Source: an uncultured virus (IMG/VR IMGVR_UViG_3300036719_003654)
Lineage: Duplodnaviria > Heunggongvirae > Uroviricota > Caudoviricetes
Direction: 5' to 3' (one strand)
Virus record (IMG/VR): IMGVR_UViG_3300036719_003654
DNA length: 64,000 nucleotides
Each line of letters starts with the position of its first letter. The stretch's first letter is position 1. Position numbers and translations under genes: made by a program. Below are positions 5,215 to 42,800 of this stretch, piece by piece. The notes under the pieces were generated by a model. That model worked only from the letters and a program-made list of their open reading frames with translations. It made no database searches and was not told the origin of the DNA.

Positions 5215-6678
5215 TCAACCGTTCCTAAGATTCTCGCGAACCTCCACCAAAGTGTAATCCTTTTGCAGGACTCCGTCCTCGAACACTGGGACGAACGCAC
5301 AGTCGAGCACTTCCTCCCAAGTCGCTTGGTCCTTCAGTTGGTACTGCCCATCGGTTTTGAACACCGCAGTCAACCCTTTGGCCGACTTCTTGGTGCCGTC
5401 GTCTGTTTTCGGAGCTTTGAAAATCTCGCGGTCAACTCCGTTGACTCGGGCAAATGTGGCCTTCACTGCAAACCCATCCGTATCGCGGGTGACGTATTGG
5501 TAGGTGTAGCTGCCAATGCCAAACACCGCGTTGGTCGAGGCGAAGCCTTTGGACTTCAGACCTTCGCAGATAGCCTCGGCACGTTCGAGAGTGATGCTGT
5601 CCCCGTAGATCAGACCAACGTGGGTGTCCAATTGGCGAAACCTTTGCGGAGTGATTGTGCCTCCGAACACCTCCCACAACACCTCAATAGAACCTTTGTA
5701 CTCGGGGGAGTCTGCGGGCGCGTCTGGATCTCCACACACCACCTTCACCGGGTCTCCTGTGTCGGGACGAAACACCACTTTACCATCGCGGGAGAGGATG
5801 TCTTCCTTCAGTTGGACTGTGAACTGGGTCAACACCTGCCAGTAGTCCCACGAGTCCGAAACGATAGAGACGACTCCTGCCGGGTAGATGTCTTTGATCA
5901 AGCGACGGAAGGTACCAAGTTCATTGTCCATGCCTCCGGCGCACATAACGCTATGTTCGGTCGCAGGGACGCTGCCACCAACAAGCTCTTTGTCCGAGTC
6001 GGCGTTGTAATACTTCTCAAGGAAGTCGATGGCTGGGATGGTGTCTGTCCCAGTGAAGCTGAGAAGGTGTCCCGCCCCCGACATCATGGCTGCCTCCGGC
6101 CCAAACATGCCTCGAAACGAGAAGTCGTGACCCTGCCATTGGACGAAGTCTGTGCAACCGACCGTGTCCAAAGCATATCTGTCAAGCAGCAGTCGATACT
6201 GCCGGGCTGTCGTAGCAGAAGTACACATCCCCCAAACGCTTGTGGACAGGATCGTTTCAAGGTAGTTGGTCAGCCAGAAAAAGTCTGGCAAAGTGTTCCA
6301 GATCACCATGCAAGGTACTCGAATCGGGTACACACTGCCTTCCGGCAAAGACATGATCTTGATCGGCAGGTAGCCGAGATGGTGGAGGGCTTCGATATGC
6401 GCCGTTCCGACTTCGTTCGGACCCAAGTAGTTTTTGATACGTCGCTTGAACTCGGCCACAACCTTTTCTTTTGGACGTTGGAAGAAGTTCTCGTTCCACT
6501 GGCGTATGAGCACTTCTTTGACGAAGTATTGCAGTCCGAAAAACACCATGTCAGGATTTCCGGCGCGGCGGGTTTTACGGGAGGTCAGGTTGCTGAACAC
6601 CAGCTCGGTCCCTTCTGGGTATTGGCGGCGGTGGTCCACTTTGTAGCCGTCGATTTGAGTGCAAGGATTTGTGGTCAT
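5215..6678 (-). CDS. nadV: Nicotinamide phosphoribosyltransferase family protein (Nampt, or Namat of NARP1)
   Basis: DGYKVDHRRQYP, HDFSFRG, SVPATEHSVMC, SIVSDSWD, RPDTGDP, IYGDSIT, FGIGS, KKSAKG. Confidence 0.95.
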   Translation of the reverse strand: MTTNPCTQIDGYKVDHRRQYPEGTELVFSNLTSRKTRRAGNPDMVFFGLQYFVKEVLIRQWNENFFQRPKEKVVAEFKRRIKNYLGPNEVGTAHIEALHHLGYLPIKIMSLPEGSVYPIRVPCMVIWNTLPDFFWLTNYLETILSTSVWGMCTSATTARQYRLLLDRYALDTVGCTDFVQWQGHDFSFRGMFGPEAAMMSGAGHLLSFTGTDTIPAIDFLEKYYNADSDKELVGGSVPATEHSVMCAGGMDNELGTFRRLIKDIYPAGVVSIVSDSWDYWQVLTQFTVQLKEDILSRDGKVVFRPDTGDPVKVVCGDPDAPADSPEYKGSIEVLWEVFGGTITPQRFRQLDTHVGLIYGDSITLERAEAICEGLKSKGFASTNAVFGIGSYTYQYVTRDTDGFAVKATFARVNGVDREIFKAPKTDDGTKKSAKGLTAVFKTDGQYQLKDQATWEEVLDCAFVPVFEDGVLQKDYTLVEVRENLRNG

Positions 6679-6762
6679 TGGAAGGAGTAAGGGTCGTTGG
6701 TTTTTTCGAGACTCCATCCCGCTCGGATAACCGAGATGAATGTCGCCGCGATAATCAGCAGG

Positions 6763-6999
6763 TCAGTTAACAGGCTCGTAGGTTTGTTCAAAGATGTCGG
6801 GTTTGCAGGCGTACACCTCGCCTTGAACTCCTGTGATGATCCAATCGCCTGGAGTCACTTCGTGTTTGATGGCGGTGTGCTCAAGCGTGTGGATGCCGAA
6901 ACCTGTGGGGGATGTAATATCTGCCACAACTGAAGGGTGATCCCCTTCTTTGTTGAACCGCGTAGCTTCGATGATGACTGGTCTTTTCCTGAATTTCAT
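6763..6999 (-). CDS. Conserved phage protein (MKFRKRPVIIEA family)
   Basis: IHTLE...PGDWIITGVQGEVYACKPDIFEQTYE. Confidence 0.85.
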   Translation of the reverse strand: MKFRKRPVIIEATRFNKEGDHPSVVADITSPTGFGIHTLEHTAIKHEVTPGDWIITGVQGEVYACKPDIFEQTYEPVN

Positions 7000-7784
7000 A
7001 GTCCGAGTTTGATGGTGGTTACTTTGTCTGCGGCGTGATGCCAAAAGCTGTCGGTTGTGATGATCTCGTCAAACTTCTCCTTCAAAGTGTGAAAACCTTT
7101 GGAGAAGATGCCGTGCGAAACTATCAGGGTGAGGTGAACTGGTTCAATCTGCTCTGCGATGGCAAGGAACGTGGCTCCACCATCGCAAATGTCGTCGATG
7201 ATGACGCAGTTGCGTCCAGTGCAAATTTCCGGGTTCTGTACCACGAGGGACACACGCCCGGTCGTGGTGTCGCGGACTTTGTCGCAGAACACTTTTTCCG
7301 AAAGGCAGGCGTTCCAATCTTGGTAGTCGGCGGCTTTGCTGACAGCTCCTTTGTCGGGCACGATGAGAACCGCGCCCAACTGGTTGTAGGCTTTGACCAG
7401 CCTGCTGTTGTTGTGAGATCGCGAGTTGTGAATCAAAGATGTGGCAACGCTGCTGTGAACATCGAACAGGTTGACCGATAAGAAACCACAGGAGTTGATG
7501 CACTGCGCCACCACCTCAAGGTCAAAACTGTCGCCAGTATTGATGATGCGGTCGTACCGAGCACCCATCAGGTAGGGTACCACAAGTTCGCGGGGTGTCG
7601 CTTGTGTGTGTCGCACTGCATTGACCACGAGCATCAACTGAACTAGTTCGAGGGGACTTCGGATTGGACAAACAACCCGCACGTCGTCTCCCGGCTGAAT
7701 GTCATTCACTGTGACGTGAGGCTGGTTGTCCGGGAAAAGGAGAGTTTTTACACGCTCTCCGGTGATCAGGTTGATGGTCTTCAT
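6996..7784 (-). CDS. prs: Ribose-phosphate pyrophosphokinase family protein (Prs, or Adps of NARP1)
   Basis: FPDNQPH, PYLMGARYDR, DVHS, PDKGA, IIDDICDGGATF, SHGIFSKG. Confidence 0.92.
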   Translation of the reverse strand: MKTINLITGERVKTLLFPDNQPHVTVNDIQPGDDVRVVCPIRSPLELVQLMLVVNAVRHTQATPRELVVPYLMGARYDRIINTGDSFDLEVVAQCINSCGFLSVNLFDVHSSVATSLIHNSRSHNNSRLVKAYNQLGAVLIVPDKGAVSKAADYQDWNACLSEKVFCDKVRDTTTGRVSLVVQNPEICTGRNCVIIDDICDGGATFLAIAEQIEPVHLTLIVSHGIFSKGFHTLKEKFDEIITTDSFWHHAADKVTTIKLGL

Positions 7785-7828
7785 GGTGTGTTTGAATTTC
7801 ACTATACTGAAACGGTGCGGACAGATTG

Positions 7829-8278
7829 TCAACCCCAAAAGTCGTCAGATTCTTCGACTGGCATGGCCTTCCGACTCTCCTCGTCAATCTCCGCCTGCTC
7901 GGCGGCAGTGTAAGGCCACGCAGACGTTTCCCGTTTTGCCTGCCGCTTCGGAAAATACGCGTACATCGTGTGCCGCGCATTGTTGACCCGGTTGGCGAGG
8001 CACACGTCCACGAAGGCGACCGAGTGTACGGCTGTCACCTCCTCCACGAACTTCATGGTCTGTTCCAACGGGACGATCAGGGTCGGTATGCTGTCCTCCA
8101 GGATGTCCTCGGCGTAGTCGGTCAACGTGCCAAGCTGCGACACTTTGCGGGCGGCGGCAGCCTCGTCGAGGTAGAGAGAAAAACCGTTGCTCTCGTGGAG
8201 CATGCGCAGGGTAGCGCGGGGGGCGGCGGCTCGCATGGCGGCGAGCTTGTCGGTGAATATGGATTTGAAAAAGGTCAT
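7829..8278 (-). CDS. Stand-alone MutS domain-I-like protein, C-terminal DDFWG
   Basis: RMLHESNGFSLYLDEAAAARKV...GTLT resembles the MutS-I GDFYELFxxDAxxAA pattern. Confidence 0.55.
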   Translation of the reverse strand: MTFFKSIFTDKLAAMRAAAPRATLRMLHESNGFSLYLDEAAAARKVSQLGTLTDYAEDILEDSIPTLIVPLEQTMKFVEEVTAVHSVAFVDVCLANRVNNARHTMYAYFPKRQAKRETSAWPYTAAEQAEIDEESRKAMPVEESDDFWG

Positions 8279-9821: not shown

Positions 9822-10190
9822 TCACTTGATGAAGGGTTGGAGTTTGGTGAGGGCTGCCTGCATCTGTGCCAACACGTCAAGCGTGTCGTCACGAGTACCC
9901 CGAACGAAGATTTGGAGTTTTATGGCGTTGCTTGCCTCTTTGATCGCCTCGCGCATCTTGGACAGTTCAGAAGGCTCGTGGTCTCGCAGAAACTTGTCCG
10001 TTTCGTCTTGGGCGTTCACCTCGTCGTCGCGTATTTCCAGAAGGAGTTCGCGGGCATCGTCTTTCCATCTGGCGAGGTCGTCGCGCTCACGTTCCAGTTT
10101 TTCCATTTTTTCGCGCAATTCAAAGCTCCATGCTCCTTTGGAGGCCATAATCGCGGCCTGAGTTTCTGGTGTTGGTCTTGTGTCGCTCAT
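9822..10190 (-). CDS. Coiled-coil hypothetical protein
   Basis: TPET...LERERD motif; coupled to the upstream gene. Confidence 0.65.
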   Translation of the reverse strand: MSDTRPTPETQAAIMASKGAWSFELREKMEKLERERDDLARWKDDARELLLEIRDDEVNAQDETDKFLRDHEPSELSKMREAIKEASNAIKLQIFVRGTRDDTLDVLAQMQAALTKLQPFIK

Positions 10191-10447
10191 GATTTCTTGG
10201 TGCTGAGTTGTTTCTTCCGCTCGGACTCGCTCCACTGCGCCATCCACATGAAGCACACGTCACGCGGATCTTTGCGCTTGAACGAATTGCGAAAGCCTGG
10301 GTTGGTTTTCCAATGGTGGCGCAGGCGGACGCAGAGCCGGGTCTGTTCGTCGCGGTCACGGGTTGCCCGACTGGCGATGACTTCCGGCACCAGATCGGGC
10401 AGGGCTTTGTCGATGTCAGGGTTGAGGTACTTGGATTTGGTTTTCAT
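10187..10447 (-). CDS. Hypothetical protein
   Basis: Preceded by the recurrent AAAACCCCGCGCC-ATG leader. Confidence 0.65.
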   Translation of the reverse strand: MKTKSKYLNPDIDKALPDLVPEVIASRATRDRDEQTRLCVRLRHHWKTNPGFRNSFKRKDPRDVCFMWMAQWSESERKKQLSTKKS

Positions 10448-10459
10448 GGCGCGGGGTTT

Positions 10460-10633
10460 TTAGGCGTTCGGGTATAGCAGCGAGCTGCTGCCGTTTTGCT
10501 CGTACTCGCGGGTTTCCGGGTTGCGCCAGAAATAAAGCCACATCCCGCCCTTGCGAATGGCGGTCTCTCCGCTGGCGAGCGTTTTGTACGCGGTAACTCC
10601 GAACTTTTGCAGTATGTCTTCAACAGTTTTCAT
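10460..10633 (-). CDS. Hypothetical 57-aa protein (not in the ORF track)
   Basis: MKTVEDILQKFGV...YPNA*, directly after a repeated promoter. Confidence 0.6.
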   Translation of the reverse strand: MKTVEDILQKFGVTAYKTLASGETAIRKGGMWLYFWRNPETREYEQNGSSSLLYPNA

Positions 10634-10673
10634 GGGCGTGGGGTTTTAAGGGTGAATTTTCATCGTGTCAAGC
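10625..10673 (-). promoter_or_regulatory. Sigma70-like promoter cassette, copy 1
   Basis: TTGACA-N17-TAAAAC-N9-ATG; 48 of 49 nt identical to 11869-11917. Confidence 0.75.
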
Positions 10674-10829
10674 TGGTATGTGAAAGTCATTTCACAAACC
10701 GTGCATCCGTGCAAGGCTCGGTCAGGTTGGTCGTTTGGTTGCGTTTGAGGGTGGCGAGCTTGAGCCGCCAGTGCTGGCGTTTGTCGGTCACACGGTCAGC
10801 CGGGCGGACGAGTCGCGGGGTTTTGGGTT

Positions 10830-11192
10830 TCATGGTGTCGTCAGGTTGAGAATGCGTTGAGTGATGCACGAGGCCAAGCCTCGCGCCTCCATCTCGGTTT
10901 TGCGGTTGCCTTGCCCGTCGAAATTCCATTTTCCATTGTGCGGGTTGCAGTCCACTTGCGTCCGGGCTTTGGTTGGGTCTGCAAATCGACCCATGACGGA
11001 CAAGAAACGCAGCGTGTCCCGGCCAGTGCCGAACGCCTTCTGCGCGTGGCAGGTGTAAGGCCCGACCATGGTTTGCACGGTGTACTCTTCCTCGCCGTAT
11101 GGGTTGGCAACGGGAGCGATGCCACGGGCGGCGAAGTCTTGCCTGATCTGGTCAAGAAAAGCCTCGTGGACTGCTTTGGTGTTGGTCTTCAT
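10830..11192 (-). CDS. Hypothetical protein
   Basis: MKTNTK...CNPHNGKWNF. Confidence 0.65.
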   Translation of the reverse strand: MKTNTKAVHEAFLDQIRQDFAARGIAPVANPYGEEEYTVQTMVGPYTCHAQKAFGTGRDTLRFLSVMGRFADPTKARTQVDCNPHNGKWNFDGQGNRKTEMEARGLASCITQRILNLTTP

Positions 11193-11369
11193 GGGGTTTA
11201 GAGAGGCAGTCCGTTGGAATCGCATTCGCGCACGTCGAGAAGTGTTGAGCCGGGGCGGTCCCAGGCTCGCCAGACATGCGCGGCGGAGACGCCGGGCAGG
11301 GTGATGGTGTAGCGGTTGGTTTCGATGCGGTAGGTGATGAGGAAACGGGCTTTCATGGGCGCGGGGTTT

Positions 11370-11684
11370 TTAGAAGGAGTACCCGGCTTTGATGAGCGCG
11401 GCCTTGGCGGCGTGCATTGCGTAATGGACTTTGGTGTTGCCTGTTCCTGACTCAGGGTGCCCAGCAAGCATGTTTTCAATCTCTTCCAATGCTTTCGCCA
11501 TGTCGGGGGCGGCGGCGATGAATTGAATGTTGGGCTTGTACGTCGGCAACAAATTGCCCTGCACGCGGCAGATGACCATGGCAGACTTCCCTCGTGGGGA
11601 GTCTTCGACGGTGCCTGCGATTATGGATCCGGGAAACTCGTGTGCGACGTTCCATTCTCCAGAGGTGATGTTTGGTCTTTTCAT
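11370..11684 (-). CDS. Hypothetical protein (TPGPW...IAAAPD family), paralog of 13959-14276
   Basis: MKRPNITSGEW...IAAAPDM...KAGYSF versus MKKPNITPGPW...IAALPDL...KAGYEF. Confidence 0.7.
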   Translation of the reverse strand: MKRPNITSGEWNVAHEFPGSIIAGTVEDSPRGKSAMVICRVQGNLLPTYKPNIQFIAAAPDMAKALEEIENMLAGHPESGTGNTKVHYAMHAAKAALIKAGYSF

Positions 11685-11697
11685 GGGCGTAGAGGTT

Positions 11698-11877
11698 TTA
11701 GGCGACGGTGTGTCTCGTTTGTTCAAGGCTGCGCACGAATGTGTTTTTGTCCGCACGTCGGCGGAAGGTCTGGAGATCGAAAAAGGGGCTGCCGTCTTTG
11801 TGGAATTTGGTGCCTCCGTGGAAGGAAACGGAATGCCGGGTTTTGCCGATGGGCGGGTTGTCTCGAAAAGTTTTCAT
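11698..11877 (-). CDS. Hypothetical 59-aa protein (not in the ORF track)
   Basis: VSFHGGTKFHKDGSPFFDLQTF; follows the promoter cassette. Confidence 0.65.
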   Translation of the reverse strand: MKTFRDNPPIGKTRHSVSFHGGTKFHKDGSPFFDLQTFRRRADKNTFVRSLEQTRHTVA

Positions 11878-11917
11878 GGGCGCGGGGTTTTAAGGGTGAA
11901 TTTTCATCGTGTCAAGC
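11869..11917 (-). promoter_or_regulatory. Sigma70-like promoter cassette, copy 2
   Basis: Near-identical to 10625-10673; the spacer contains the palindrome TGAA-AA-TTCA. Confidence 0.75.
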
Positions 11918-11977
11918 GCACAATCCAAAACTCGGCGGCCCCTGGCTATGGGGCGGGCGGGTTCTGGCTTGCGGGCT

Positions 11978-12460
11978 TTAGCTGCGGACGTAGTAGCTTT
12001 CACCTTGGTACTCGACCGTGGAGTAGTCCTGTTGCAGTTGCTCGGCGGCTTCAGTCCAGTCGATGCAGGTGAAAGGCCATGTGGCCTCGCGAACTGCTTT
12101 CCCGTGGATGACCTCGGCCATCTCGCGGGCGTAATCCTCGAAATCACTTTCGGGGATCATCGTCTCACCGTGCATGAACTCGCTGATCTCGTTTTCGAGG
12201 GTTTCGAGTTCGTCCAGCTCGGCTTTCTCGTCGTCGCTGAAGTCGGACTCGGCGATTTCAAGATTGCTCTCTGCGTCTGTCACTCCTTCGCTGGCAATCT
12301 CCAGCGCGGCCTCGCTCGCCTCATCTTCGGGGGTTTCCTCCAATGCTGCCAGCTCGCCTTTCTTTCCCTCCAGTTCCTCGCGTGCCGTGGTGACGGCATC
12401 GCGGAGTTCTTCGAGTTTGCATTTACGCTTGTACAGGTCGCGGGTGTATAGTGTTTTCAT
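11978..12460 (-). CDS. Highly acidic protein, ArdA-like C-terminus (candidate anti-restriction DNA mimic)
   Basis: Very Glu/Asp-rich; FEDYAREMAE...WPFTCIDWTEAAEQLQQDY. Confidence 0.55.
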   Translation of the reverse strand: MKTLYTRDLYKRKCKLEELRDAVTTAREELEGKKGELAALEETPEDEASEAALEIASEGVTDAESNLEIAESDFSDDEKAELDELETLENEISEFMHGETMIPESDFEDYAREMAEVIHGKAVREATWPFTCIDWTEAAEQLQQDYSTVEYQGESYYVRS

Positions 12461-12484
12461 ATTGTCTTGGTCGTTTGGTTTGTT

Positions 12485-12543
12485 GCGTCACTCTGCATTT
12501 GTCCGGGCTTGTGACCGGCGCACCGTTGCGGCTGCATTAACGC
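12485..12543 (-). ncRNA. Twister self-cleaving ribozyme, type P1
   Basis: GCGU-UAA-UGCA-GC-CGCA(ACGG)UGCG-CCGG-UCACAAGC-CCGG-ACAAA-UGCA-GAGUG-ACGC: P1-P4 plus both pseudoknots (CAC/GUG, GC/GC); intergenic and in the sense of the operon. Confidence 0.9.
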
Positions 12544-12556
12544 CCGAGGGCGGTTT

Positions 12557-13015
12557 TTAGTTGATCTCCTGCAACTGCTCAAGCTCGGCCCCGGTGAAGA
12601 AGGCGCGCAGCCGTTTGGCGAAGGCCGAACAGCGGCGGAACGTCTGGAGTGATTTGATGCTGTCCGACTCGTACCCGTATTCCGCGCAGAAGTCCGCGAA
12701 GGTTTCCGGCGTGTACGCATCGCCCGAGATGCAGGCGAGCACAGAATACGCGGAGACGGTTTGAATGCCTTTCTCCGCGTCTGCGATGCTTGACCAGAAG
12801 TCGAAGGTCAGGCGGTTTGAAGCGCAGACGTTGCCGGTATGTTCTGGAGTGCCTGCTTTGCCCTTGCTAAGCGTCACACGGTAGTGATGGCCGTGCTTGC
12901 CGTTGTCTCCCCACGCTGGCGCTTTGGTGTCGCTCAGCGTGGCGCGGAACTTGATCTCGTTGGAGGTCAAGAACTGCTCCGCTTGGGTGTCGTATTCGTT
13001 TGGTGTCGTTTTCAT
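12557..13015 (-). CDS. Conserved phage hypothetical protein
   Basis: YSVLACI...TFADFCAEYGYESDS. Confidence 0.75.
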   Translation of the reverse strand: MKTTPNEYDTQAEQFLTSNEIKFRATLSDTKAPAWGDNGKHGHHYRVTLSKGKAGTPEHTGNVCASNRLTFDFWSSIADAEKGIQTVSAYSVLACISGDAYTPETFADFCAEYGYESDSIKSLQTFRRCSAFAKRLRAFFTGAELEQLQEIN

Positions 13016-13101
13016 ATGTTTTGCTTTTGACGTTTTGCGGGTGTCTCCCCCGTTGGTTTCTCTGTCTGCCAGCGTCCACCGCTGGAAATTGATTGCGCGG
13101 G

Positions 13102-13129
13102 TATATAGTTTAAATGCTCACAGTGTCAA
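13102..13129 (-). promoter_or_regulatory. Sigma70-like promoter (CACTGT family)
   Basis: TTGACACTGTGAGCATTTAAACTATATA; related to the promoters near 13751-13778 and 16713-16741. Confidence 0.6.
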
Positions 13130-13727
13130 TCACTTCAAGGCAAAAGTTCATTGCCAGCAGGCGCGACTTTTTCAGATTGTCTGGCCCGGCTTCGATGTAC
13201 GCCGCGAGTTCTTCGGGCGTGCCTTGGAAGCAGCCGCAGAAAAACCTCTTGGCTTCTCCAATGGTTGCCAGCGTGAGCATTCGCCCGCACTCGCCGTGCC
13301 CGGTGAAAGCGACTTGCGCGAATTGCAAACCCCGGTTTTCGGAGAGGTTCGCGCCGGAGAGGTTCGCGCTGCGGAGGTTCGCGCTGCGGAGGTTCGCGCC
13401 GCAGAGGTTCGCGCTGCGGAGGTTCGCGCCGTAGAGGTTCGCGCCGCAGAGGTTCGCGCCGTAGAGGTTCGCGCCGTAGAGGTTCGCGCCGTAGAGGTTC
13501 GCGCCGGAGAGGTTCGCGCTGCGGAGGTCCGCGCCGTAGAGGTTCGCGCCGGAGAGGTTCGCGCTGCGGAGGTACGCGCCGTAGAGGTTCGCGCCGGAGA
13601 GGTTCGCGCTGCGGAGGTCCGCGCCGTAGAGGTTCGCGCCGCAGAGGTTCGCGCGTTTTCCGGCGGGGTCATTTACCAACCAAAGGGAATGTAAACGCAG
13701 GGTTTCTTTGATTTGTTCGGTGTTCAT
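13110..13727 (-). CDS. Pentapeptide-repeat protein with DUF5758-like C-terminus
   Basis: About 20 A(N/D)Lxx repeats followed by FFCGCFQGTPEEL. Confidence 0.9.
   Translation of the reverse strand: MNTEQIKETLRLHSLWLVNDPAGKRANLCGANLYGADLRSANLSGANLYGAYLRSANLSGANLYGADLRSANLSGANLYGANLYGANLYGANLCGANLYGANLRSANLCGANLRSANLRSANLSGANLSENRGLQFAQVAFTGHGECGRMLTLATIGEAKRFFCGCFQGTPEELAAYIEAGPDNLKKSRLLAMNFCLEVIDTVSI
13341..13654. repeat. 15-nt coding tandem repeat
   Basis: Units such as GAGGTTCGCGCCGTA encode the pentapeptides. Confidence 0.9.
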
Positions 13728-13735
13728 GGTGTCGA

Positions 13736-13756
13736 ATATATATATATATATATATA
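13736..13756. repeat. (AT)10A microsatellite in the promoter/leader
   Basis: 21 alternating A/T bases between TTGACA (13773-13778, minus) and the ATG at 13727. Confidence 0.9.
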
Positions 13757-13774
13757 GGTTAAAAATTCACAGTG

Positions 13775-13924
13775 TCAAGCCGGGAATGCGATTTTGATCC
13801 AGACAAACCCCGCCACCATGGCGAGCGCGAGACACGCGGCCCATGTGCGCAACGCCTTTGCCCTGCGTCTGCGGGTTGCTACTTGGGCGTAATGGTGGCG
13901 GAGTTTGTGAGGATCTGCGTTCAT
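13775..13924 (-). CDS. Small membrane protein, 49 aa (not in the ORF track)
   Basis: Basic RRRRAK followed by the hydrophobic WAACLALAMVAGFVWI. Confidence 0.55.
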   Translation of the reverse strand: MNADPHKLRHHYAQVATRRRRAKALRTWAACLALAMVAGFVWIKIAFPA

Positions 13925-13958
13925 GGCGGTGGTTGCTGGTTTTTGGCGGGGTGGGTTT

Positions 13959-14276
13959 TTAGGGGAACTCGTATCCGGCTTTGGCGAGTGCGTCTCTTGC
14001 TGTTTGCGTGTCGTATTCCATCCGTCCAGCTTCTCGCTGGTGGTCGTTTGCGCATTCCAGCAGGCTTAAAGCTGCTCCCAATGCCGCCAGCAAGTCGGGG
14101 AGCGCGGCGATTGCCTGCGCATCCGCGTTCAAAATGCGCGTGTCGCGTGAACTATCGACAAGGCAAATGCTGGCCCCGCCGTTTTCCCATGAGCGGGATA
14201 TGCCTATTTCCTGCTCTCCGTTTGCGGCGTTGGATTCTTTGCGCCACGGCCCCGGCGTGATGTTTGGTTTCTTCAT
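13959..14276 (-). CDS. Hypothetical protein (TPGPW family)
   Basis: MKKPNITPGPW...ADAQAIAALPDLL. Confidence 0.7.
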   Translation of the reverse strand: MKKPNITPGPWRKESNAANGEQEIGISRSWENGGASICLVDSSRDTRILNADAQAIAALPDLLAALGAALSLLECANDHQREAGRMEYDTQTARDALAKAGYEFP

Positions 14277-14279
14277 GGT

Positions 14280-14356
14280 GTTTCTGGTTTGTTGTTTCGC
14301 GGCTTTGTAGCTCACGCATGGCGGCACCCTCGCGGATGCCGTCAAGCGCGGTCTAG
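14280..14356 (-). repeat. Intergenic hairpin cassette, copy A
   Basis: TAGACCGCGC-[stem, GCGA loop]-GCGTGAGCTACAAAGC...GAAACAACAAACCAGAAA. Confidence 0.85.
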
Positions 14357-15294
14357 GCGGTTTGCAGTTCCTTTTTCTGACTGATCTTCCGCGCCACGTT
14401 GAGCGCGAGCATGGCGGCGGATGGGTTGCCCGTGCGGATGAGTTGCGGCAGTGTGGCAGAGTCGGCGATGCCATGCGCCGCTTGGAATGCGGCAATGCCG
14501 GGCGAGCAATAGCCGAGTCGGCGGGCATCTTCGATGGTTGCCACGGCGGAGCCACAGAGCCGGGCAATCAGTCGTGCCCGGCGCTCCACCTTGCCAGCGG
14601 CACGGGCGAGTTTTTGCTCGCGCGCGTGTATAGCCAGCTTGCGGGCAAACCCAGCCTGCGCATCCGCTGCCGATTTGGTGGAGTGATAGCAGAGCGCCGC
14701 GTTGCCCACGATCCAGCCTTTTTGGCTCACTATCTGCTTGCCGCTGGTTTTCACCCACACGGCGGAGCTGTCCGCGTACAGGGCAATCAGGTGCAAACCT
14801 TCGCGGGCGGAGCACTGGCGCAGGGCTTCCGACTCAACCAAAAGGATAGATCCTTCTGGCGTGAGTTTGACCGTGTGGCTTGCGTCCGTTTTGCTGTACT
14901 TGCATTGACGGCTGTACTGATCCCCTTTGTCCGTGTTGGTGAACGCGCACGGCTCGACCCCCCAGGATGCGCGGTAAGTCGTGTGTCCGCTGTAGTCTCC
15001 GCCCATCTGCGCGGCTTTTTTGCCGATTTCCAGCGCGATACGGGCAGCAGTTTCCGCCGTCTCGCGCCGGGCTTTTGGGAGCGCGGTAAAGGTGGCGGCG
15101 GCTTTTTCACTCTCAACCTTGCAACGGCGAGCCGCTGAAAGGGTGCACGGGTTAATCAGCGCAGGCACTATTGTCCCGGTGATGATTTGGTCGAGTTCCC
15201 GTTGCGCCGTTTGACGGGCGGCAACGGCTTTATCCTCGGTATTCTTGACAGCGAGCAACTTTTTAAGGTCGAGCACTTTCGTTTCGGTTTTCAT
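14353..15294 (-). CDS. Basic Ala-rich hypothetical protein
   Basis: 313-aa ORF bounded by cassettes; DARRLGYCSPGI motif. Confidence 0.75.
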   Translation of the reverse strand: MKTETKVLDLKKLLAVKNTEDKAVAARQTAQRELDQIITGTIVPALINPCTLSAARRCKVESEKAAATFTALPKARRETAETAARIALEIGKKAAQMGGDYSGHTTYRASWGVEPCAFTNTDKGDQYSRQCKYSKTDASHTVKLTPEGSILLVESEALRQCSAREGLHLIALYADSSAVWVKTSGKQIVSQKGWIVGNAALCYHSTKSAADAQAGFARKLAIHAREQKLARAAGKVERRARLIARLCGSAVATIEDARRLGYCSPGIAAFQAAHGIADSATLPQLIRTGNPSAAMLALNVARKISQKKELQTA

Positions 15295-15298
15295 ATCG

Positions 15299-15381
15299 TG
15301 TTTTCTGGTTTGTTGTTTCGTGCGCTTTGTAGCTCACGCTTGCGCCCTCCCTTTTGCAGGGAGGACGCGGGCGCGGTCTAG
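15299..15381 (-). repeat. Intergenic hairpin cassette, copy B
   Basis: TAGACCGCGC-CC-GCGTCCTCCC(TGCAAAA)GGGAGGGCGC-AA-GCGTGAGCTAC. Confidence 0.85.
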
Positions 15382-16001
15382 TAGATTTTTCCATCTGCGG
15401 TGAACTCGTACGCGTTTGCGATGATGTTCTCTGCCACGTTATCGTCGGCGTGGTAATCCTCGTACGCGGCTTCAAGCTGGCGGTAGATCCACCGCATGAA
15501 GTCCTTCGCCGTTTCCGTGATTTCCTTTTCCGCTGCTTCCCATTGATCCGAGGTGGATTTACCTTCCCCGTTGTCTTCATACTCGCCAAGACTGACGGAA
15601 AAGTCCGTACAATTCTCGTGCGAGTAGCGGCCGCAATGCTTGACGGTGAATGAGCTTTCCGGCCATGCTTTCGCAAACTTGGCAAACTCTGCGGCAATGC
15701 GCTTGATTTGCGTTGTTGCTTCGCTTTCGCCCCATCCATCTGCCACAAGCTCCGCTTTGACACTGGCAGCTTTCCAGCTTCCTTCAAAACATGCGCCGTC
15801 GCCTTGACTCCAGAAGCCGGAAAAATAGACGTTACTTATTTCCAGCCCCATTGCTTTTCCTTGCTCTTTCGCAAACGTGCATTCACTCCAAAAGGAGTCC
15901 CCATCTAGGCGACTCGATTCCTTCCACCAGTCGCGGGCTTTTGCTTTTGCCGTGTCTGTCAGTTCCTCGTATTTGAATATCTGGATTTCCTTGGTTCTCA
16001 T
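15378..16001 (-). CDS. Conserved acidic phage early protein
   Basis: YEELTDTAKAKARDW...GFWSQGDGACF...IIANAYEFTADG. Confidence 0.8.
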   Translation of the reverse strand: MRTKEIQIFKYEELTDTAKAKARDWWKESSRLDGDSFWSECTFAKEQGKAMGLEISNVYFSGFWSQGDGACFEGSWKAASVKAELVADGWGESEATTQIKRIAAEFAKFAKAWPESSFTVKHCGRYSHENCTDFSVSLGEYEDNGEGKSTSDQWEAAEKEITETAKDFMRWIYRQLEAAYEDYHADDNVAENIIANAYEFTADGKIY

Positions 16002-16015
16002 ATGTGCGCTTTCTC

Positions 16016-16098
16016 TGTTTTTGGTTCGTTGTTTCGCGGGCTTTGTAGCTCACGCTTGCGCCCTCCCCTTTTGCAGGGAGGACGCGGGCGCGGTCTAG
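16016..16098 (-). repeat. Intergenic hairpin cassette, copy C
   Basis: Near-identical to copy B. Confidence 0.85.
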
Positions 16099-16514
16099 TT
16101 GGATTCCGCCACTTGCGCGGCGTAGGTTTTAGCAGATTCGGCTTCGCAGTGCTTGATGGCTGCAATGATCTGGTTAGAGATGTCCAACTCTGTCGTTTGC
16201 TGACCTAGCTCTTCCAATGCTTCAACGGTCATTTGATTCTCGTATCCGCTGATTTCTGGATTGCTTTCCTCTGGCACGTCGCCAGCCTTTTCCCAGGTTC
16301 CGCCAAGGTACGCGTTACCTTCGATCTCGTCACCGTTGACGATTGCCACGGCTCGCACGTTGCTTTGCCACGCCTGCCAGTCGTCGGGGTTTTCATCTTC
16401 CATGCCATCGCAATACTTGCGGATGTCGGAATGATCGTTGTCGTGCTCCCAGATTGTGTGAATCGAGATTGATGGCGCAATCTGGGCAAGGGCTTTTTGC
16501 AGTTCGGTTTTCAT
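16095..16514 (-). CDS. Acidic hypothetical protein
   Basis: 139 aa, A/C-rich leader, AYLGG motif. Confidence 0.7.
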   Translation of the reverse strand: MKTELQKALAQIAPSISIHTIWEHDNDHSDIRKYCDGMEDENPDDWQAWQSNVRAVAIVNGDEIEGNAYLGGTWEKAGDVPEESNPEISGYENQMTVEALEELGQQTTELDISNQIIAAIKHCEAESAKTYAAQVAESN

Positions 16515-16707: not shown

Positions 16708-16751
16708 GTGAAAGTATATAGTCTAAATGTTAACAGTGCAAGTCTTTTCTG

Positions 16752-39877: not shown

Positions 39878-42800
39878 ATGGCGGACACTCCTTCATGGCT
39901 TGCCGAATACCCCGAGGCTGCTGAAAAAGATTGGCTCAACGAGTATCCAGAGGCAAAAGACGAACCTTTCTTCGACCTCTCAGACACATTGTCTGCCGCA
40001 GGGCAGGCAGTCACGGGCTTGCCTACAACCGTGCCTCGGGCTTTCAGGCAACTTTACGAAGGTCTCGAAAACCCGTGGGAACGTGGAGAAGGGTATCTGA
40101 AATCTCAAGAAGCCGCCGACGCCTACCAGCAGGAGTTGGAAGCCGCCAACCTGGAAGCCGAGAAATCCGGCGACATCTCCACCATGTCTCGCGGCATGCG
40201 TCAAGCTGGGCAGTCTCTCGGCTTTAGTGCCGGAGCTATGGGCGCAGGTCTCATCGCCAGCACTCCATCTGCGGCTGCTGGCAGGACTATTGGCGGTCTG
40301 GCTGGCCCTGAAGGGGCGGTTGCTGGTGAAATCATTGGACGCGGTGCCGGTGCGCTCGCTTCAGGCTACGGCGCTGCCTACCGTATGGCTGGAGCGCAGT
40401 TCCTCGACGACGCCCGCAAAGAGATCGACGCCAAGTTTTTACAAGTCACGGGCGAACTGCCGAACGAGCAGCAGCAGGAAGAAGCGTATCAAGAACTCTT
40501 GCCGTTGGCGCAGGCGTTCGGGCACGCGGAAGCCGGTCCAGAAGCCATCGGCAACCTCGCCATGGCTGGGGCTGGTAAGTATGTGTTCGGCCTCGGGCGT
40601 AAAACCATTGAAAAACTGGCGGCGAGCGCCTTGGGCAAAACCGGGGCTGCGGCGGGAGCACTCGGCACCGAGCTTGCAGGCGAGACCATCACAGGAGTTG
40701 AGCAAAACCGCATCGACTCGCAGAAGAAGGACATCCTCGAAGGGCGAGACCCTTCAGAACTGCCTTCTCGGGAGATGGAAGACTACCTCAAATCGTTCAA
40801 AGAGGTGGCCCCAGCAACGCTCGCCACCATGGGCTTGATGAGTGTGGCCCCTGCCACCGTCAAAGCCGCCAGCCTCATCCGTGGGAAACCTGCGGAAGCG
40901 GCTCCCACCGACGACTTTGCCCAACGTGCCGCTATGGAAGGCGCAGTGGGGGAAGCTACCCCCGTCGAAGTGGAAGGCGTCGTCATCGCCACCATTCCCC
41001 CGGAGTCCGACATGACTCCCGAAGACGTGCTCGACTTTGCCAACAGTCCCGAGGACATGGCAATGCTCGCCCGCAATGGCAAGATTACACTCCCCGAAGT
41101 GGTGGAGCCTATCGACGGCGTTGACCCTGCGATTACCGAAGAGATGGACGCCCGACTTGCAGAGGGCAAGGCTTCTGGTTTGGCGGATCAAACTTTGGCT
41201 GAATTGGAGAGGCAGAAAGCTGCGCAGGGAGCGCCTGCCCCCACTGCCGAAGCACCCGCCCCCACTGCGCCTGTTGAGTTGCCAGATGTCGAATCTGGAA
41301 TCATTGATGCAAGGATAGATTTGCCCCGTTTACAGGCGGCCATACAGCAGAAGCCAGATGGAAAAACAAGCGGCCCTCGTGTTACCGACGTAGTTGCTAA
41401 CAATGATTTTGCTAAAAATGGAGGGTGGAAGCTGCATCTTTCCGTCACTCCAGAGAACTATCAAGCAGTTGATGAGTGGTTGCATAAAAACCACAAAGGT
41501 CAGTATAAACTTCTAAGCGGTGGATCACCAGAAGAAGGGTCTGATTTCACCGTTTATGTTGGTCATAAAGATGCCGCCAACGATCTTGCGTCCAAGATTG
41601 AATCTGAAATTGGAAACCTTCTAAACCCGTTTGAGAGCGGTCCAGCAAAGGACGCTCAGTTTAATGCCAAGGTTGGTGGGCGTTTTGATGTTGCACGCAC
41701 TGGAAACATTAAAGATGTTCCATGGAATTATGCTGGCATGAGTGGCGTTCCATTTGATGAGACGGCCATGGAGGCTATCAACAACATTGGTGAAGCTCCC
41801 AAAACACGAGAGCAGTTTGCCGCAAAAGCCGCTCCAGAAATTGAGCGAATCAATAAGCAGTTGGTCGCCAAATACGGAGACCGCTACACTGGATCAAAAA
41901 CACCTGCCCCCGTTGCCGAAGCACCCGCCCCCACTGCCGAAACTCTTGGTGTCACAGCGCCACTAGCCCCGACGCTGGAAACCCCCGAAGGCGCGGCACG
42001 CAACGCCGACATGCTCCGTCAAGCCGCTGCCCGTGTGGCAGGCACCGAGCGGGGGCCACGAGTTGGCCTGATTCCACAACCAAGTGTAAAGTTGAATTTG
42101 ACTCCTGACGAAACCAGCGGCACAGGTGCGGCGATGAAAGAAGAAAATCAACAGACCGAGAGTGGGGTGGTTCACAAGGCCGCCGTGCTTTCTAGTATTA
42201 ACAGCAAATCATCAGTCTCCGCCGAAGCCGTTGACACCTACAAGATCGCCCTTCCCGAAGGCTACGTCAAACAAGGCGATCTTTACGTCTTCAAATCCCC
42301 AGCCGCTACCGAAGGCGCGGTCATGCCGGGAGGCAGTGCTCCTGCTCCTGCTACAACACTATCACGCGGCAAACCCAGAGAAAGCATCGTTTTCAAAACG
42401 CCGGTAAAGACACCTCTTGGTGAGGTGGTTGGCTATTCATGGTCCAGTCAGCTTGTGGAGGACGTGGACAATATGGGCGAGCCAGTCCTTCGCCGCATCT
42501 CTAACTGGGAAGAGGCGACCAACAATGCCGAGACAGGGCGCGACATCGTTCACAAGTTCCTAATCAGGAAGCCAGACGGCACAACTTCCGAAGTGTCTCT
42601 TGAGAGCACTTTCGGCAAGATGACCGACAGCGACAAGAAGACCATCAAAGCCGTTGTCTCTGCGGCTAAAAGACTGCCCTTCATGCGCGCAGAACTGGCA
42701 GAGCTTCAAGACTTGCAGAAGCAGGCAGAGGCAGACTACCAACGGACGCAGAAGCTCACACCCGACCCAACGAAGTTGGAACTGCGGGAGCCAGACGTAA

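What the first reader, a model, noticed from the sequence alone, without database searches (positions are those of the whole stretch)
12485..12543. Intact twister ribozyme inside the early polycistronic operon
Seen on the minus (sense) strand: P1 GCGU/ACGC, cleavage loop U^AA (predicted cut between 12539 and 12538), P2 UGCA/UGCA, P3 CGCA/UGCG, P4 CCGG/CCGG with loop UCACAAGC, then GAG. Pseudoknot T1 is CAC/GUG, a compensatory variant of the CCC/GGG I recall from the rice twister. It lies 13 nt after the stop of gene 12557 and 24 nt before the acidic ArdA-like gene. A competing hairpin, CGCC-CUCG-GGCG, overlaps the P1 5' strand. Inference: host-independent mRNA processing that gives the downstream message a 5'-OH end, possibly gated by ribosomes terminating upstream.
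Basis: partly seen in the sequence, partly recalled or inferred. Interest (0 to 1): 0.82.

Follow-up and report, generated by a model that had tools for sequence, protein, structure and literature searches.

The report
Twister self-cutting RNA between phage genes
The 59-base stretch is a genuine-looking twister ribozyme sitting between two same-strand genes of an uncultivated phage, an arrangement that turns out to be common in phage DNA and is therefore an ordinary new member of a known family.

Summary
On the minus strand, 12543..12485 matches the whole Rfam type-P1 twister model (RF03160, positions 1-68 of 68). The score is 59.4 bits and E is 7.4e-11 for the whole window. The score lies below Rfam's gathering cut-off of 67.2, so a default scan reports nothing. 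The same is true of 23 of 25 twister hits in 20 other viral loci.

The CAC/GUG pseudoknot is a common phage variant: 21 of 48 unique viral type-P1 twisters carry it, and the middle pair covaries.

The layout is typical of these phage twisters:
- a stop codon, then a GC hairpin, then the ribozyme (hairpin in 41 of 48);
- same-strand ORFs on both sides (34 of 48).

A review already proposes that such ribozymes process polycistronic mRNA (PMC6765202). This scan has 209 earlier notes that hold the words twister and ribozyme, in at least 165 genomes; the eight shown were on other DNA, seven of them phage.

Cleavage, its consequences and any ribosome gating are untested. The "ArdA-like" label for the downstream gene is not supported. 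Verdict: a real feature and a new member of a known kind, of modest interest.

The parts
12485..12543 (-). Type-P1 twister ribozyme with P3: P1, UAA, P2, GCC, P3, P4 with loop UCACAAGC, A-rich linker, P2', GAGUG, P1'
   Evidence: Rfam RF03160, 59.4 bits, model 1-68/68, E 7.4e-11. All pairs verified.
12538..12539 (-). Predicted scissile U-A step (cut between U12539 and A12538)
   Evidence: Alignment of U12539 A12538 A12537 to the model's U5 A6 A7. Cleavage at the U-A step is taken from PMC6154101 section 5. Not tested experimentally.
12541..12552 (-). GC hairpin CGCC-CUCG-GGCG directly after the stop codon; its 3' strand shares 12543-12541 with the P1 5' strand
   Evidence: hairpin alone -7.6 kcal/mol; hairpin plus P2-P4 -18.3, against P1-P4 -15.9. 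A hairpin of at least 4 bp ends 0-6 nt before the cut-site triplet in 41 of 48 viral type-P1 twisters.
12489..12493 (-). GAGUG: G12493 lies at the foot of P2, the position of the conserved catalytic guanine; G12491-G12489 is the 3' strand of T1
   Evidence: Aligned to model GAGGG. The role of the guanine at the bottom of P2 is from PMC6154101 passages. The mapping is my inference.
12511..12513 (-). CAC in the P4 loop, the 5' strand of pseudoknot T1
   Evidence: Covariation with the GAG-N-G position in 45 of 48 unique viral sequences.
12557..13015 (-). Upstream gene, 152 aa, phage family of unknown function (phrog_4273)
   Evidence: Relatives found in 6 viral contigs.
11978..12460 (-). Downstream gene, 160 aa, acidic, phage family of unknown function (phrog_25535); the ArdA link is not supported
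12461..12484 (-). 24-nt A/C-rich leader, predicted unpaired, no Shine-Dalgarno motif
13102..13129 (-). Promoter-like repeat (TTGACA, 16 nt, TATATA) that may start the two-gene unit holding the ribozyme
   Evidence: Direct-repeat family D3. Read by eye as a promoter; not called by the scan, whose rule needs a T at the last position of the second hexamer.

Best explanation
This is a functional-looking type-P1 twister self-cleaving ribozyme. It is encoded in the 96-nt spacer between two co-oriented small genes of an uncultivated tailed phage.

Shown:
- the sequence fits the whole family model;
- it can form every defining helix and both pseudoknots;
- it carries the conserved loop nucleotides;
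- it is kept identical in four near-identical contigs;
- its layout (stop codon, GC hairpin, ribozyme, short leader, next gene) is the usual one for phage twisters.

Inferred: once transcribed, the RNA folds and cuts itself between U12539 and A12538. The transcript splits in two. The upstream message ends in the CGCC/GGCG hairpin with a 2',3'-cyclic phosphate. The downstream message begins with a 5'-OH, the compact ribozyme body and an unstructured 24-nt leader before the ATG at 12460. The likely effect is to uncouple the stability and translation of the two cistrons, an RNA-level insulator.

The hairpin shares three bases with the P1 5' strand. It most likely takes that strand over after the cut, which would hold the products apart and cap the upstream 3' end. 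Because P1 has been reported as dispensable for twister cleavage, the hairpin need not block the reaction.
For: Family match:
- Full-length RF03160 match at 59.4 bits, E 7.4e-11 for the window, and the only ribozyme hit in 64 kb.
- All pairs of P1-P4, T1 and T2 verified.

Covariation in 48 unique viral type-P1 twisters:
- the T1 middle pair is Watson-Crick in 45 (A-U 21, C-G 20, G-C 3, U-A 1);
- P2 is fully paired in 42, with 13 sequence types;
- P1 is 4/4 paired in 23, against a shuffle mean of 4.0 and maximum of 11.
Other T1 positions covary too: GAC/GUC, UAC/GUA and GGC/GCC in L150, L158 and L160.

Relatives:
- Four near-identical contigs carry the identical ribozyme.
- L089 carries it with one change, in the hairpin loop.
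- A 90-95% relative in an RNA library has P3 re-paired with other letters: 3 of 4 pairs changed on both sides, worked out by me from tables 3 and 4.

Score: the window's value is typical. In 20 viral loci, 25 twister-P1 hits scored 47.3-68.1 bits and only 2 reached the gathering score.

Context:
- 34 of 48 lie between same-strand ORFs, against 11 of 48 for the antisense control.
- 41 of 48 have a hairpin of at least 4 bp ending 0-6 nt before the cut-site triplet. The mean fold energy of the 40 nt upstream is -14.2 kcal/mol against -7.9 for control segments, p 1.5e-9.

Literature:
- P1 is dispensable for cleavage (PMC6154101 section 5; PMC5408937 figure 5 legend).
- Processing of polycistronic transcripts and a link to phage genes have been proposed (PMC6765202 section 13).
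Against: - No experiment here shows cleavage.
- The score is below Rfam's curated gathering cut-off (59.4 against 67.2; one search lists nothing).
- Nearest-neighbour energies favour the competing hairpin over P1 by about 2.4 kcal/mol (-18.3 against -15.9). The unconstrained MFE fold contains neither P1 nor P2.
- One linker position that is a conserved U in the model is C here.
- Two more distant relatives of the upstream gene (70% and 52% amino-acid identity) have no twister within 3 kb. One of them keeps the same gene pair with a different spacer. The ribozyme is therefore dispensable for this gene pair.
- In an RNA library, a contig of a 90-95% relative runs across the cut site (record 3, 12480-12815). 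This could be uncut precursor, carried-over DNA, or an assembler joining the two products.
Confidence: 0.8

Rival explanations
1. Translation-gated ribozyme. Before the cut, the hairpin C12552-G12541 holds the P1 5' strand. A ribosome terminating at UAA 12559-12557 melts the hairpin, frees 12543-12540 for P1, and so couples cleavage to translation of the upstream gene.
For: - The hairpin and P1 are mutually exclusive over 12543-12541, and the hairpin is predicted to be the more stable.
- The same overlap recurs in a subfamily with different hairpin loops: L004, L033, the second copies in L036 and L080, and L089.
- In those five, the upstream ORF's stop lies 11-13 nt before P1. That is within reach of a terminating ribosome; the footprint size is recalled, not tested.
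Against: - P1 is reported as dispensable for twister cleavage (PMC6154101 section 5; PMC5408937), so sequestering it may not switch the ribozyme off.
- In 31 of 41 viral type-P1 twisters that have the upstream hairpin, it ends 2-6 nt before the cut-site triplet (28 of them at 3-5 nt), so it leaves most or all of a 4-nt P1 strand free. That fits a stacking or 3'-end hairpin better than a switch.
- Short stop-to-hairpin distances are expected anyway in compact phage genomes.
- There are no data on kinetics or translation.
Confidence: 0.12
2. The ribozyme is active but is a sporadically acquired, largely neutral or selfish intergenic module. It moves between phage spacers and confers no specific benefit on these two genes.
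For: - It is absent from the 70% and 52% relatives, while the 70% relative keeps the same gene pair with another spacer.
- Near-identical ribozyme cores occur next to unrelated genes in many unrelated viral contigs, often several per contig and beside hammerheads: L036 has three twisters, L061 two, and L033 a twister plus a hammerhead II.
- The biological role of such ribozymes is stated to be unresolved (PMC6765202).
Against: - The placement is highly regular: sense strand, between ORFs, in 34 of 48 against 11 of 48 antisense.
- A hairpin is conserved just upstream (41 of 48).
- Compensatory changes maintain the fold.
All three argue for selection on function in the transcript.
Confidence: 0.2
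3. Inactive look-alike or decayed relic: the match reflects ancestry or chance, but the RNA no longer cuts.
For: - The score is below the Rfam gathering threshold.
- One conserved linker U is C.
- P1 competes with a stronger hairpin.
- Decayed copies do exist elsewhere: L196 lacks P4, and the second copy in L036 has an unpaired P1.
Against: - E is 7.4e-11.
- Every helix and both pseudoknots are intact.
- The only deviation at a conserved pseudoknot position is compensated.
- The linker position varies among other viral twisters.
- P3 is re-paired in a relative.
- 23 of 25 other viral hits score in the same sub-threshold range.
Confidence: 0.07

Closest known systems
Twister ribozyme, type P1 (Rfam RF03160, clan CL00120; family described by Roth et al. 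2014 as summarised in PMC5408937 and PMC6154101)
   Same: - Termini in P1 and a U-A-A cut-site loop.
- P2, the GCC junction, the optional P3, and P4 with loop UC-N-CAAGC.
- An A-rich linker and GAG-N-G.
- The double pseudoknot T1/T2.
- A full-length model match.
   Different: - The T1 middle pair is A-U where the model consensus has C-G.
- P3 is only 4 bp with a tetraloop, so 9 model positions are deleted.
- A linker U is C.
- The score is 7.8 bits below the gathering cut-off.
- The P1 5' strand is embedded in an upstream hairpin.
Other phage twisters in IMG/VR contigs, especially L089, L080 (second copy), L004 and L033
   Same: - The same CAC/GUG T1 and the same P2 (UGCA/UGCA).
- A hairpin after the stop codon that overlaps P1.
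- An intercistronic position.
   Different: - The flanking genes are unrelated, except in the near-identical contigs.
- The sequences of the hairpin loop and of P3 differ.
Bacterial and prophage hammerhead and twister ribozymes proposed to process mRNAs (PMC6765202, section 13)
   Same: A small self-cleaving ribozyme near phage genes, with a proposed role in cutting polycistronic transcripts into parts of different stability or translation.
   Different: That proposal is itself untested for natural loci. Here the ribozyme is in an uncultivated phage with no close isolate (best primase identity under 30%).
Optional stem P0 of twister (named in PMC6154101 and PMC5408937; its position 5' of P1 is recalled by me and was not read)
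   Same: An extra helix at the 5' side of a type-P1 twister. A hairpin there is seen in 41 of 48 viral examples.
   Different: In the window and a small subfamily, the hairpin overlaps P1 where most others stop short of it. The reviews give P0 in 21% of annotated twisters, far fewer than in this viral sample.

Membership tests
Twister ribozyme (Rfam RF03160, type P1) | Significant full-length match to the family covariance model | tested here: met
   59.4 bits, model 1-68 of 68, E 1.9e-13 (161 nt) and 7.4e-11 (whole window).
Twister ribozyme (Rfam RF03160, type P1) | Score at or above Rfam's curated gathering threshold (67.2 bits) | tested here: not met
   59.4 bits, so nothing is listed at gathering. 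This is a curation cut-off, not a structural feature. 23 of 25 twister-P1 hits in 20 other viral loci also fall below it.
Twister ribozyme (Rfam RF03160, type P1) | [quoted passage not shown] | tested here: met
   Four standard pairs in each stem, verified by script and by the model alignment.
Twister ribozyme (Rfam RF03160, type P1) | Double pseudoknot T1 and T2 between the P4 loop and loops L1/L2 | tested here: met
   T1 is C-G, A-U, C-G and T2 is G-C, C-G. The T1 middle pair covaries in 45 of 48 unique viral sequences. Formation in three dimensions was not testable.
Twister ribozyme (Rfam RF03160, type P1) | Strongly conserved nucleotides of L1 and L4, including the A 3' of the cut and the guanine at the foot of P2 | tested here: met
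   UAA, GCC, G-CCGG-UC-CAAGC-CCGG, AAA and GAG all match the upper-case consensus positions. The exceptions are the compensated T1 pair and one linker U that is C here.
Twister ribozyme (Rfam RF03160, type P1) | Site-specific self-cleavage at the U-A step, giving 2',3'-cyclic phosphate and 5'-OH ends | not testable with these tools
   Only assembled contigs of RNA libraries were available, and these cannot show RNA ends.
ArdA antirestriction protein (Pfam PF07275), for the downstream 160-aa gene | Match to the ArdA profile or fold | tested here: not met
   No Pfam family at E<=0.01. No solved relative at E<=0.1. The Atlas leads are below its own bar: feature score 0.81 to a cluster where 10% carry ArdA, and TM 0.46 to an ArdA cluster.

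The most novel reading that the evidence does not exclude
A conserved subfamily of phage twisters has its P1 5' strand built into a hairpin that starts 1-4 nt after the upstream stop codon, with the stop 11-13 nt from P1. Strand exchange between hairpin and P1 could then make cleavage depend on a terminating ribosome. Alternatively, it could lock the cut irreversibly and cap the upstream mRNA. Either would be a natural translation-coupled or product-trapping ribozyme switch.
Probability: 0.15. Interest if true: 0.6.

Novelty: new member of a known kind. Interest (0 to 1): 0.3.

Why it matters
It adds one more well-formed natural twister in a phage, in a clean and testable setting: probably a two-gene unit. 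Two practical points follow. First, Rfam's gathering threshold misses this one and most of the phage type-P1 twisters sampled here (23 of 25), so routine annotation under-counts them. Second, the recurrent layout of stop codon, hairpin, twister, leader and gene gives a concrete model for testing what intercistronic ribozymes do for phage gene expression, a question that the 2019 review PMC6765202 calls open.

Tried and rejected
- Default Rfam scan of the window: no match at gathering. The hit appears only with E-value thresholds.
- The other sub-threshold hit, sR32 at 2615-2671 (E 0.11), is taken as chance.
- Plain MFE folding does not recover the ribozyme and gives z 0.45.
- No whole genome is held for this window.
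- Megablast of 10000-16000 against cultured phages: no match.
- Primase tblastn: only remote hits under 30% identity, so no host could be assigned.
- RNA evidence. Three RNA libraries held small shares. When laid, two hold pieces more than 99% identical, but only at 12188-12358 and 12316-12466. One holds a 90-95% relative. All are contigs, so starts, ends and cleavage cannot be read, and parts without cover say nothing.
- The second DNA pattern returned mostly chance matches inside coding sequence. By eye, about 13 of the 106 unique rows are twister-like.
- My first parsing script mixed permuted twisters and Shine-Dalgarno GGAGG motifs into the type-P1 set. It was replaced by the stricter parse. 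In that parse one row (L122) is mis-registered and one (L079) is probably not a twister; both were kept in the counts.
- Roth et al. 2014 could not be opened by DOI or by a recalled PMC id. What I say about it comes from the reviews.
- ArdA link: rejected as unsupported.
- Earlier notes of this scan on this genome or sequence: none.

Full report
**What is there.** Read on the minus strand, the 96-nt spacer between the stop codon UAA 12559-12557 and the ATG at 12460 holds a 59-nt element, 12543..12485. Its parts are P1 (GCGU/ACGC), an unpaired UAA, P2 (UGCA/UGCA), GCC, P3 (CGCA/UGCG, loop ACGG), P4 (CCGG/CCGG, loop UCACAAGC), the linker ACAAA, and GAGUG.

A script checked every proposed pair, including the pseudoknots. 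T1 is C12513-G12489, A12512-U12490 and C12511-G12491. T2 is G12532-C12507 and C12531-G12508. So is the hairpin C12552-G12541, which overlaps P1.

**Is it more than chance?** Rfam's default scan at gathering thresholds lists nothing in the window. With E-value thresholds, the type-P1 twister model RF03160 matches 12543..12485 over its whole length (1-68 of 68). The score is 59.4 bits, with E 1.9e-13 for a 161-nt stretch and 7.4e-11 for the whole 64-kb window on both strands. It is the only credible RNA-family hit in the window; the other, sR32 at E 0.11, I take as chance.

The shortfall against the gathering score of 67.2 has visible causes in the alignment. P3 is short, so nine model positions are deleted. 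The two T1 letters differ from the consensus, and the model cannot credit them as a pair because it does not model pseudoknots.

Ordinary nested folding is unremarkable: z is 0.45, and the MFE fold lacks P1 and P2. That is expected for a fold held together by pseudoknots.

**Relatives of this very copy.** The upstream and downstream proteins retrieve four viral contigs at 98-100% amino-acid identity. All four hold the identical ribozyme. L089 holds it with a single change, in the hairpin loop.

Two more distant relatives of the upstream gene (70% and 52% identity) have no twister within 3 kb at E<=0.1. The 70% relative keeps the same gene pair, but its spacer of about 120 nt holds a different long hairpin and a CA repeat. 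In the 52% relative another gene follows at once. The ribozyme is thus a recent gain or loss at this spot.

An RNA library holds a 90-95% relative whose contig spans the element. From the listed substitutions and indels I infer that its P3 stem is re-paired with different letters. Three of four pairs changed on both sides and the loop changed too. That is natural compensatory evidence for P3. Differences within about 30 nt of that contig's end are not listed, so the rest of that copy is unknown.

**The family in phages.** There are 130 core matches, counting the window. Of these, 60 have type-P1 flanks (48 unique), 39 look circularly permuted, and 31 have no twister flanks.

In the 48 unique type-P1 sequences:
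- The T1 middle pair is Watson-Crick in 45: A-U 21, C-G 20, G-C 3, U-A 1. The three exceptions include one parse error of mine and one probable non-twister.
- P2 is fully paired in 42, with 13 sequence types.
- P1 is fully paired in 23, against a mean of 4.0 and a maximum of 11 in 1000 shuffles.

A second, independent anchor found T1 variants at the other positions as well: GAC/GUC, UAC/GUA and GGC/GCC.

In phages it is about as common as the model's CCC/GGG.

Rfam confirmed all 20 loci that I submitted, out of the 41 loci that hold the 48 unique sequences. It gave 25 twister-P1 hits at 47.3-68.1 bits, and only 2 reach the gathering score. The window's 59.4 bits is therefore typical for phage twisters.

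**Context rules.** In 34 of 48 cases, a same-strand ORF of at least 50 codons ends within 70 nt upstream and another starts within 80 nt downstream. The antisense control gives 11 of 48.

In 41 of 48 cases, a hairpin of at least 4 bp ends 0-6 nt before the cut-site triplet. The mean fold energy of the 40 nt upstream is -14.2 kcal/mol, against -7.9 for control segments (p 1.5e-9). Usually the hairpin stops 3-4 nt short of the triplet. In 10 of 48, including this element, it ends 0-1 nt before the triplet and so covers the P1 strand.

In the five members of this overlap subfamily that I looked at, the stop codon lies 11-13 nt before P1.

The reviews name an optional stem P0 in 21% of annotated twisters (PMC6154101 section 5; PMC5408937 passages). 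I recall, but did not read, that P0 lies 5' of P1. If so, the hairpin is that stem or a variant of it.

**Energetics of the competition.** The nested twister fold P1-P4 scores -15.9 kcal/mol. The hairpin plus P2-P4 scores -18.3. The hairpin alone scores -7.6. On secondary-structure terms the hairpin wins. These numbers ignore the pseudoknots, stacking and Mg2+. The reviews also report that P1 is not required for efficient cleavage (PMC6154101 section 5; PMC5408937, figure 5 legend). The hairpin therefore need not be an off-switch.

**Surroundings.** The window is phage-like. It encodes:
- a primase;
- nicotinamide phosphoribosyltransferase and ribose-phosphate pyrophosphokinase;
- a helicase, methyltransferases, tail-fibre and endolysin-like proteins;
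- a 3422-aa protein with an ADP-ribosyltransferase domain.

No cultured relative is close.

The ribozyme lies in an array of small minus-strand genes of unknown function, including a pentapeptide-repeat protein. The array carries repeated promoter-like elements on the minus strand: TTGACA, 16 nt, then TATATA or TTAAAA (read by eye). Copies at 13129-13102 and 11915-11888 bracket exactly the two genes that flank the ribozyme. The unit being cut may therefore be bicistronic. This is inference.

The leaders of several of these genes, including the 24 nt after the ribozyme, are A/C-rich, predicted unpaired, and lack a Shine-Dalgarno motif.

The downstream protein belongs to a phage-only family of unknown function. 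Calling it ArdA-like is not supported.

**How it most likely works.**
- Shown: the sequence is a complete, covariation-supported twister on the sense strand between two genes.
- Inferred from the family's established chemistry (PMC6154101, PMC5408937): the RNA cuts between U12539 and A12538, leaving a 2',3'-cyclic phosphate upstream and a 5'-OH downstream.
- Inferred from the anatomy: after the cut, the 4-bp P1 opens and its 5' strand is captured by the hairpin. The upstream message then has a structured 3' end. The downstream message keeps the folded ribozyme body at its 5' end, ahead of an open leader. The net effect would be to separate the fates of the two cistrons. This is the role proposed for such ribozymes in PMC6765202 (section 13), where it is said still to need proof.

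**Comparison and novelty.** It is a member of the twister family by every structural criterion tested; only the curated score cut-off is missed. The setting (a phage, between genes) and the proposed role are in print in general form. My literature searches for twister with phage terms found only general reviews, not a treatment of this layout. This scan already holds 209 notes with the words twister and ribozyme, in at least 165 genomes; of the eight notes shown, seven concern phage DNA and one an animal retroelement. I rate it a new member of a known kind.

Two things may be worth following up. One is the hairpin-overlap subfamily with its fixed distance to the stop codon. The other is the systematic under-calling of phage twisters at the Rfam threshold.

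**Limits.** No cleavage data exist here, and the RNA libraries gave contigs only. Host and timing of expression are unknown. They therefore describe that subset of phage twisters only.

Noticed in passing
window 13102-13129, 13751-13778, 16715-16742; 10615-10673 and 11859-11917: Repeated promoter-like elements on the minus strand. One kind is TTGACA, 16 nt, TATATA. The other is TTGACA, 16 nt, TTAAAA, followed after 10 nt by ATGAAA. A 25-nt family has 7 copies between 10440 and 16932. This suggests many short transcription units in the small-gene array.
   Followed up: partly
window 15302-15382 and 16018-16099: Two near-identical spacers (91-100% identity), each beginning right after a UAG stop. 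Each has a strong GC hairpin followed by an A/C-rich leader.
   Followed up: partly
window 13343-13654 and 13736-13756: A 15-nt unit repeated 20.8 times makes up most of a pentapeptide-repeat gene (Pfam PF00805, E 3.9e-37). An (AT)10.5 microsatellite sits just upstream of its start.
   Followed up: partly
window 39878-50146 (+): A 3422-aa ORF with an ADP-ribosyltransferase domain of the kind found in polyvalent proteins (PF18760, E 3.1e-07) and no PHROG match.
   Followed up: no
window 5215-6717 and 6996-7838 (-): Nicotinamide phosphoribosyltransferase and ribose-phosphate pyrophosphokinase genes lie side by side, a phage NAD-salvage pair.
   Followed up: no
window, starts at 16514, 16001, 15294, 13015, 12460 (-): The leaders are A/C-rich and G-poor, with no Shine-Dalgarno motif.
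   Followed up: no
L129 3627-3742: The 70% relative has the same two genes, but its spacer holds a different long hairpin and a (CA)n run with no Rfam hit. The spacer content has been swapped between relatives.
   Followed up: partly
L033 205-269; L036; L061; L091 373-443: Other viral contigs cluster ribozymes. L033 has a type II hammerhead about 300 nt from a twister. L036 has three twisters and L061 two. In L091 a tRNA gene lies beside a twister.
   Followed up: no
L002, L016, L023, L037 and many others (rows): Circularly permuted twisters end a few bases before a GGAGG motif and an ATG, so the cut would leave a message that starts just ahead of its ribosome-binding site.
   Followed up: no
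L196 about 562 (minus orientation); L036/L161, copy listed at 890-952 (L036) and 1024 (L161): Apparently decayed copies. One lacks the P4 hairpin. The other has a P1 3' strand that no longer pairs with its 5' strand.
   Followed up: no
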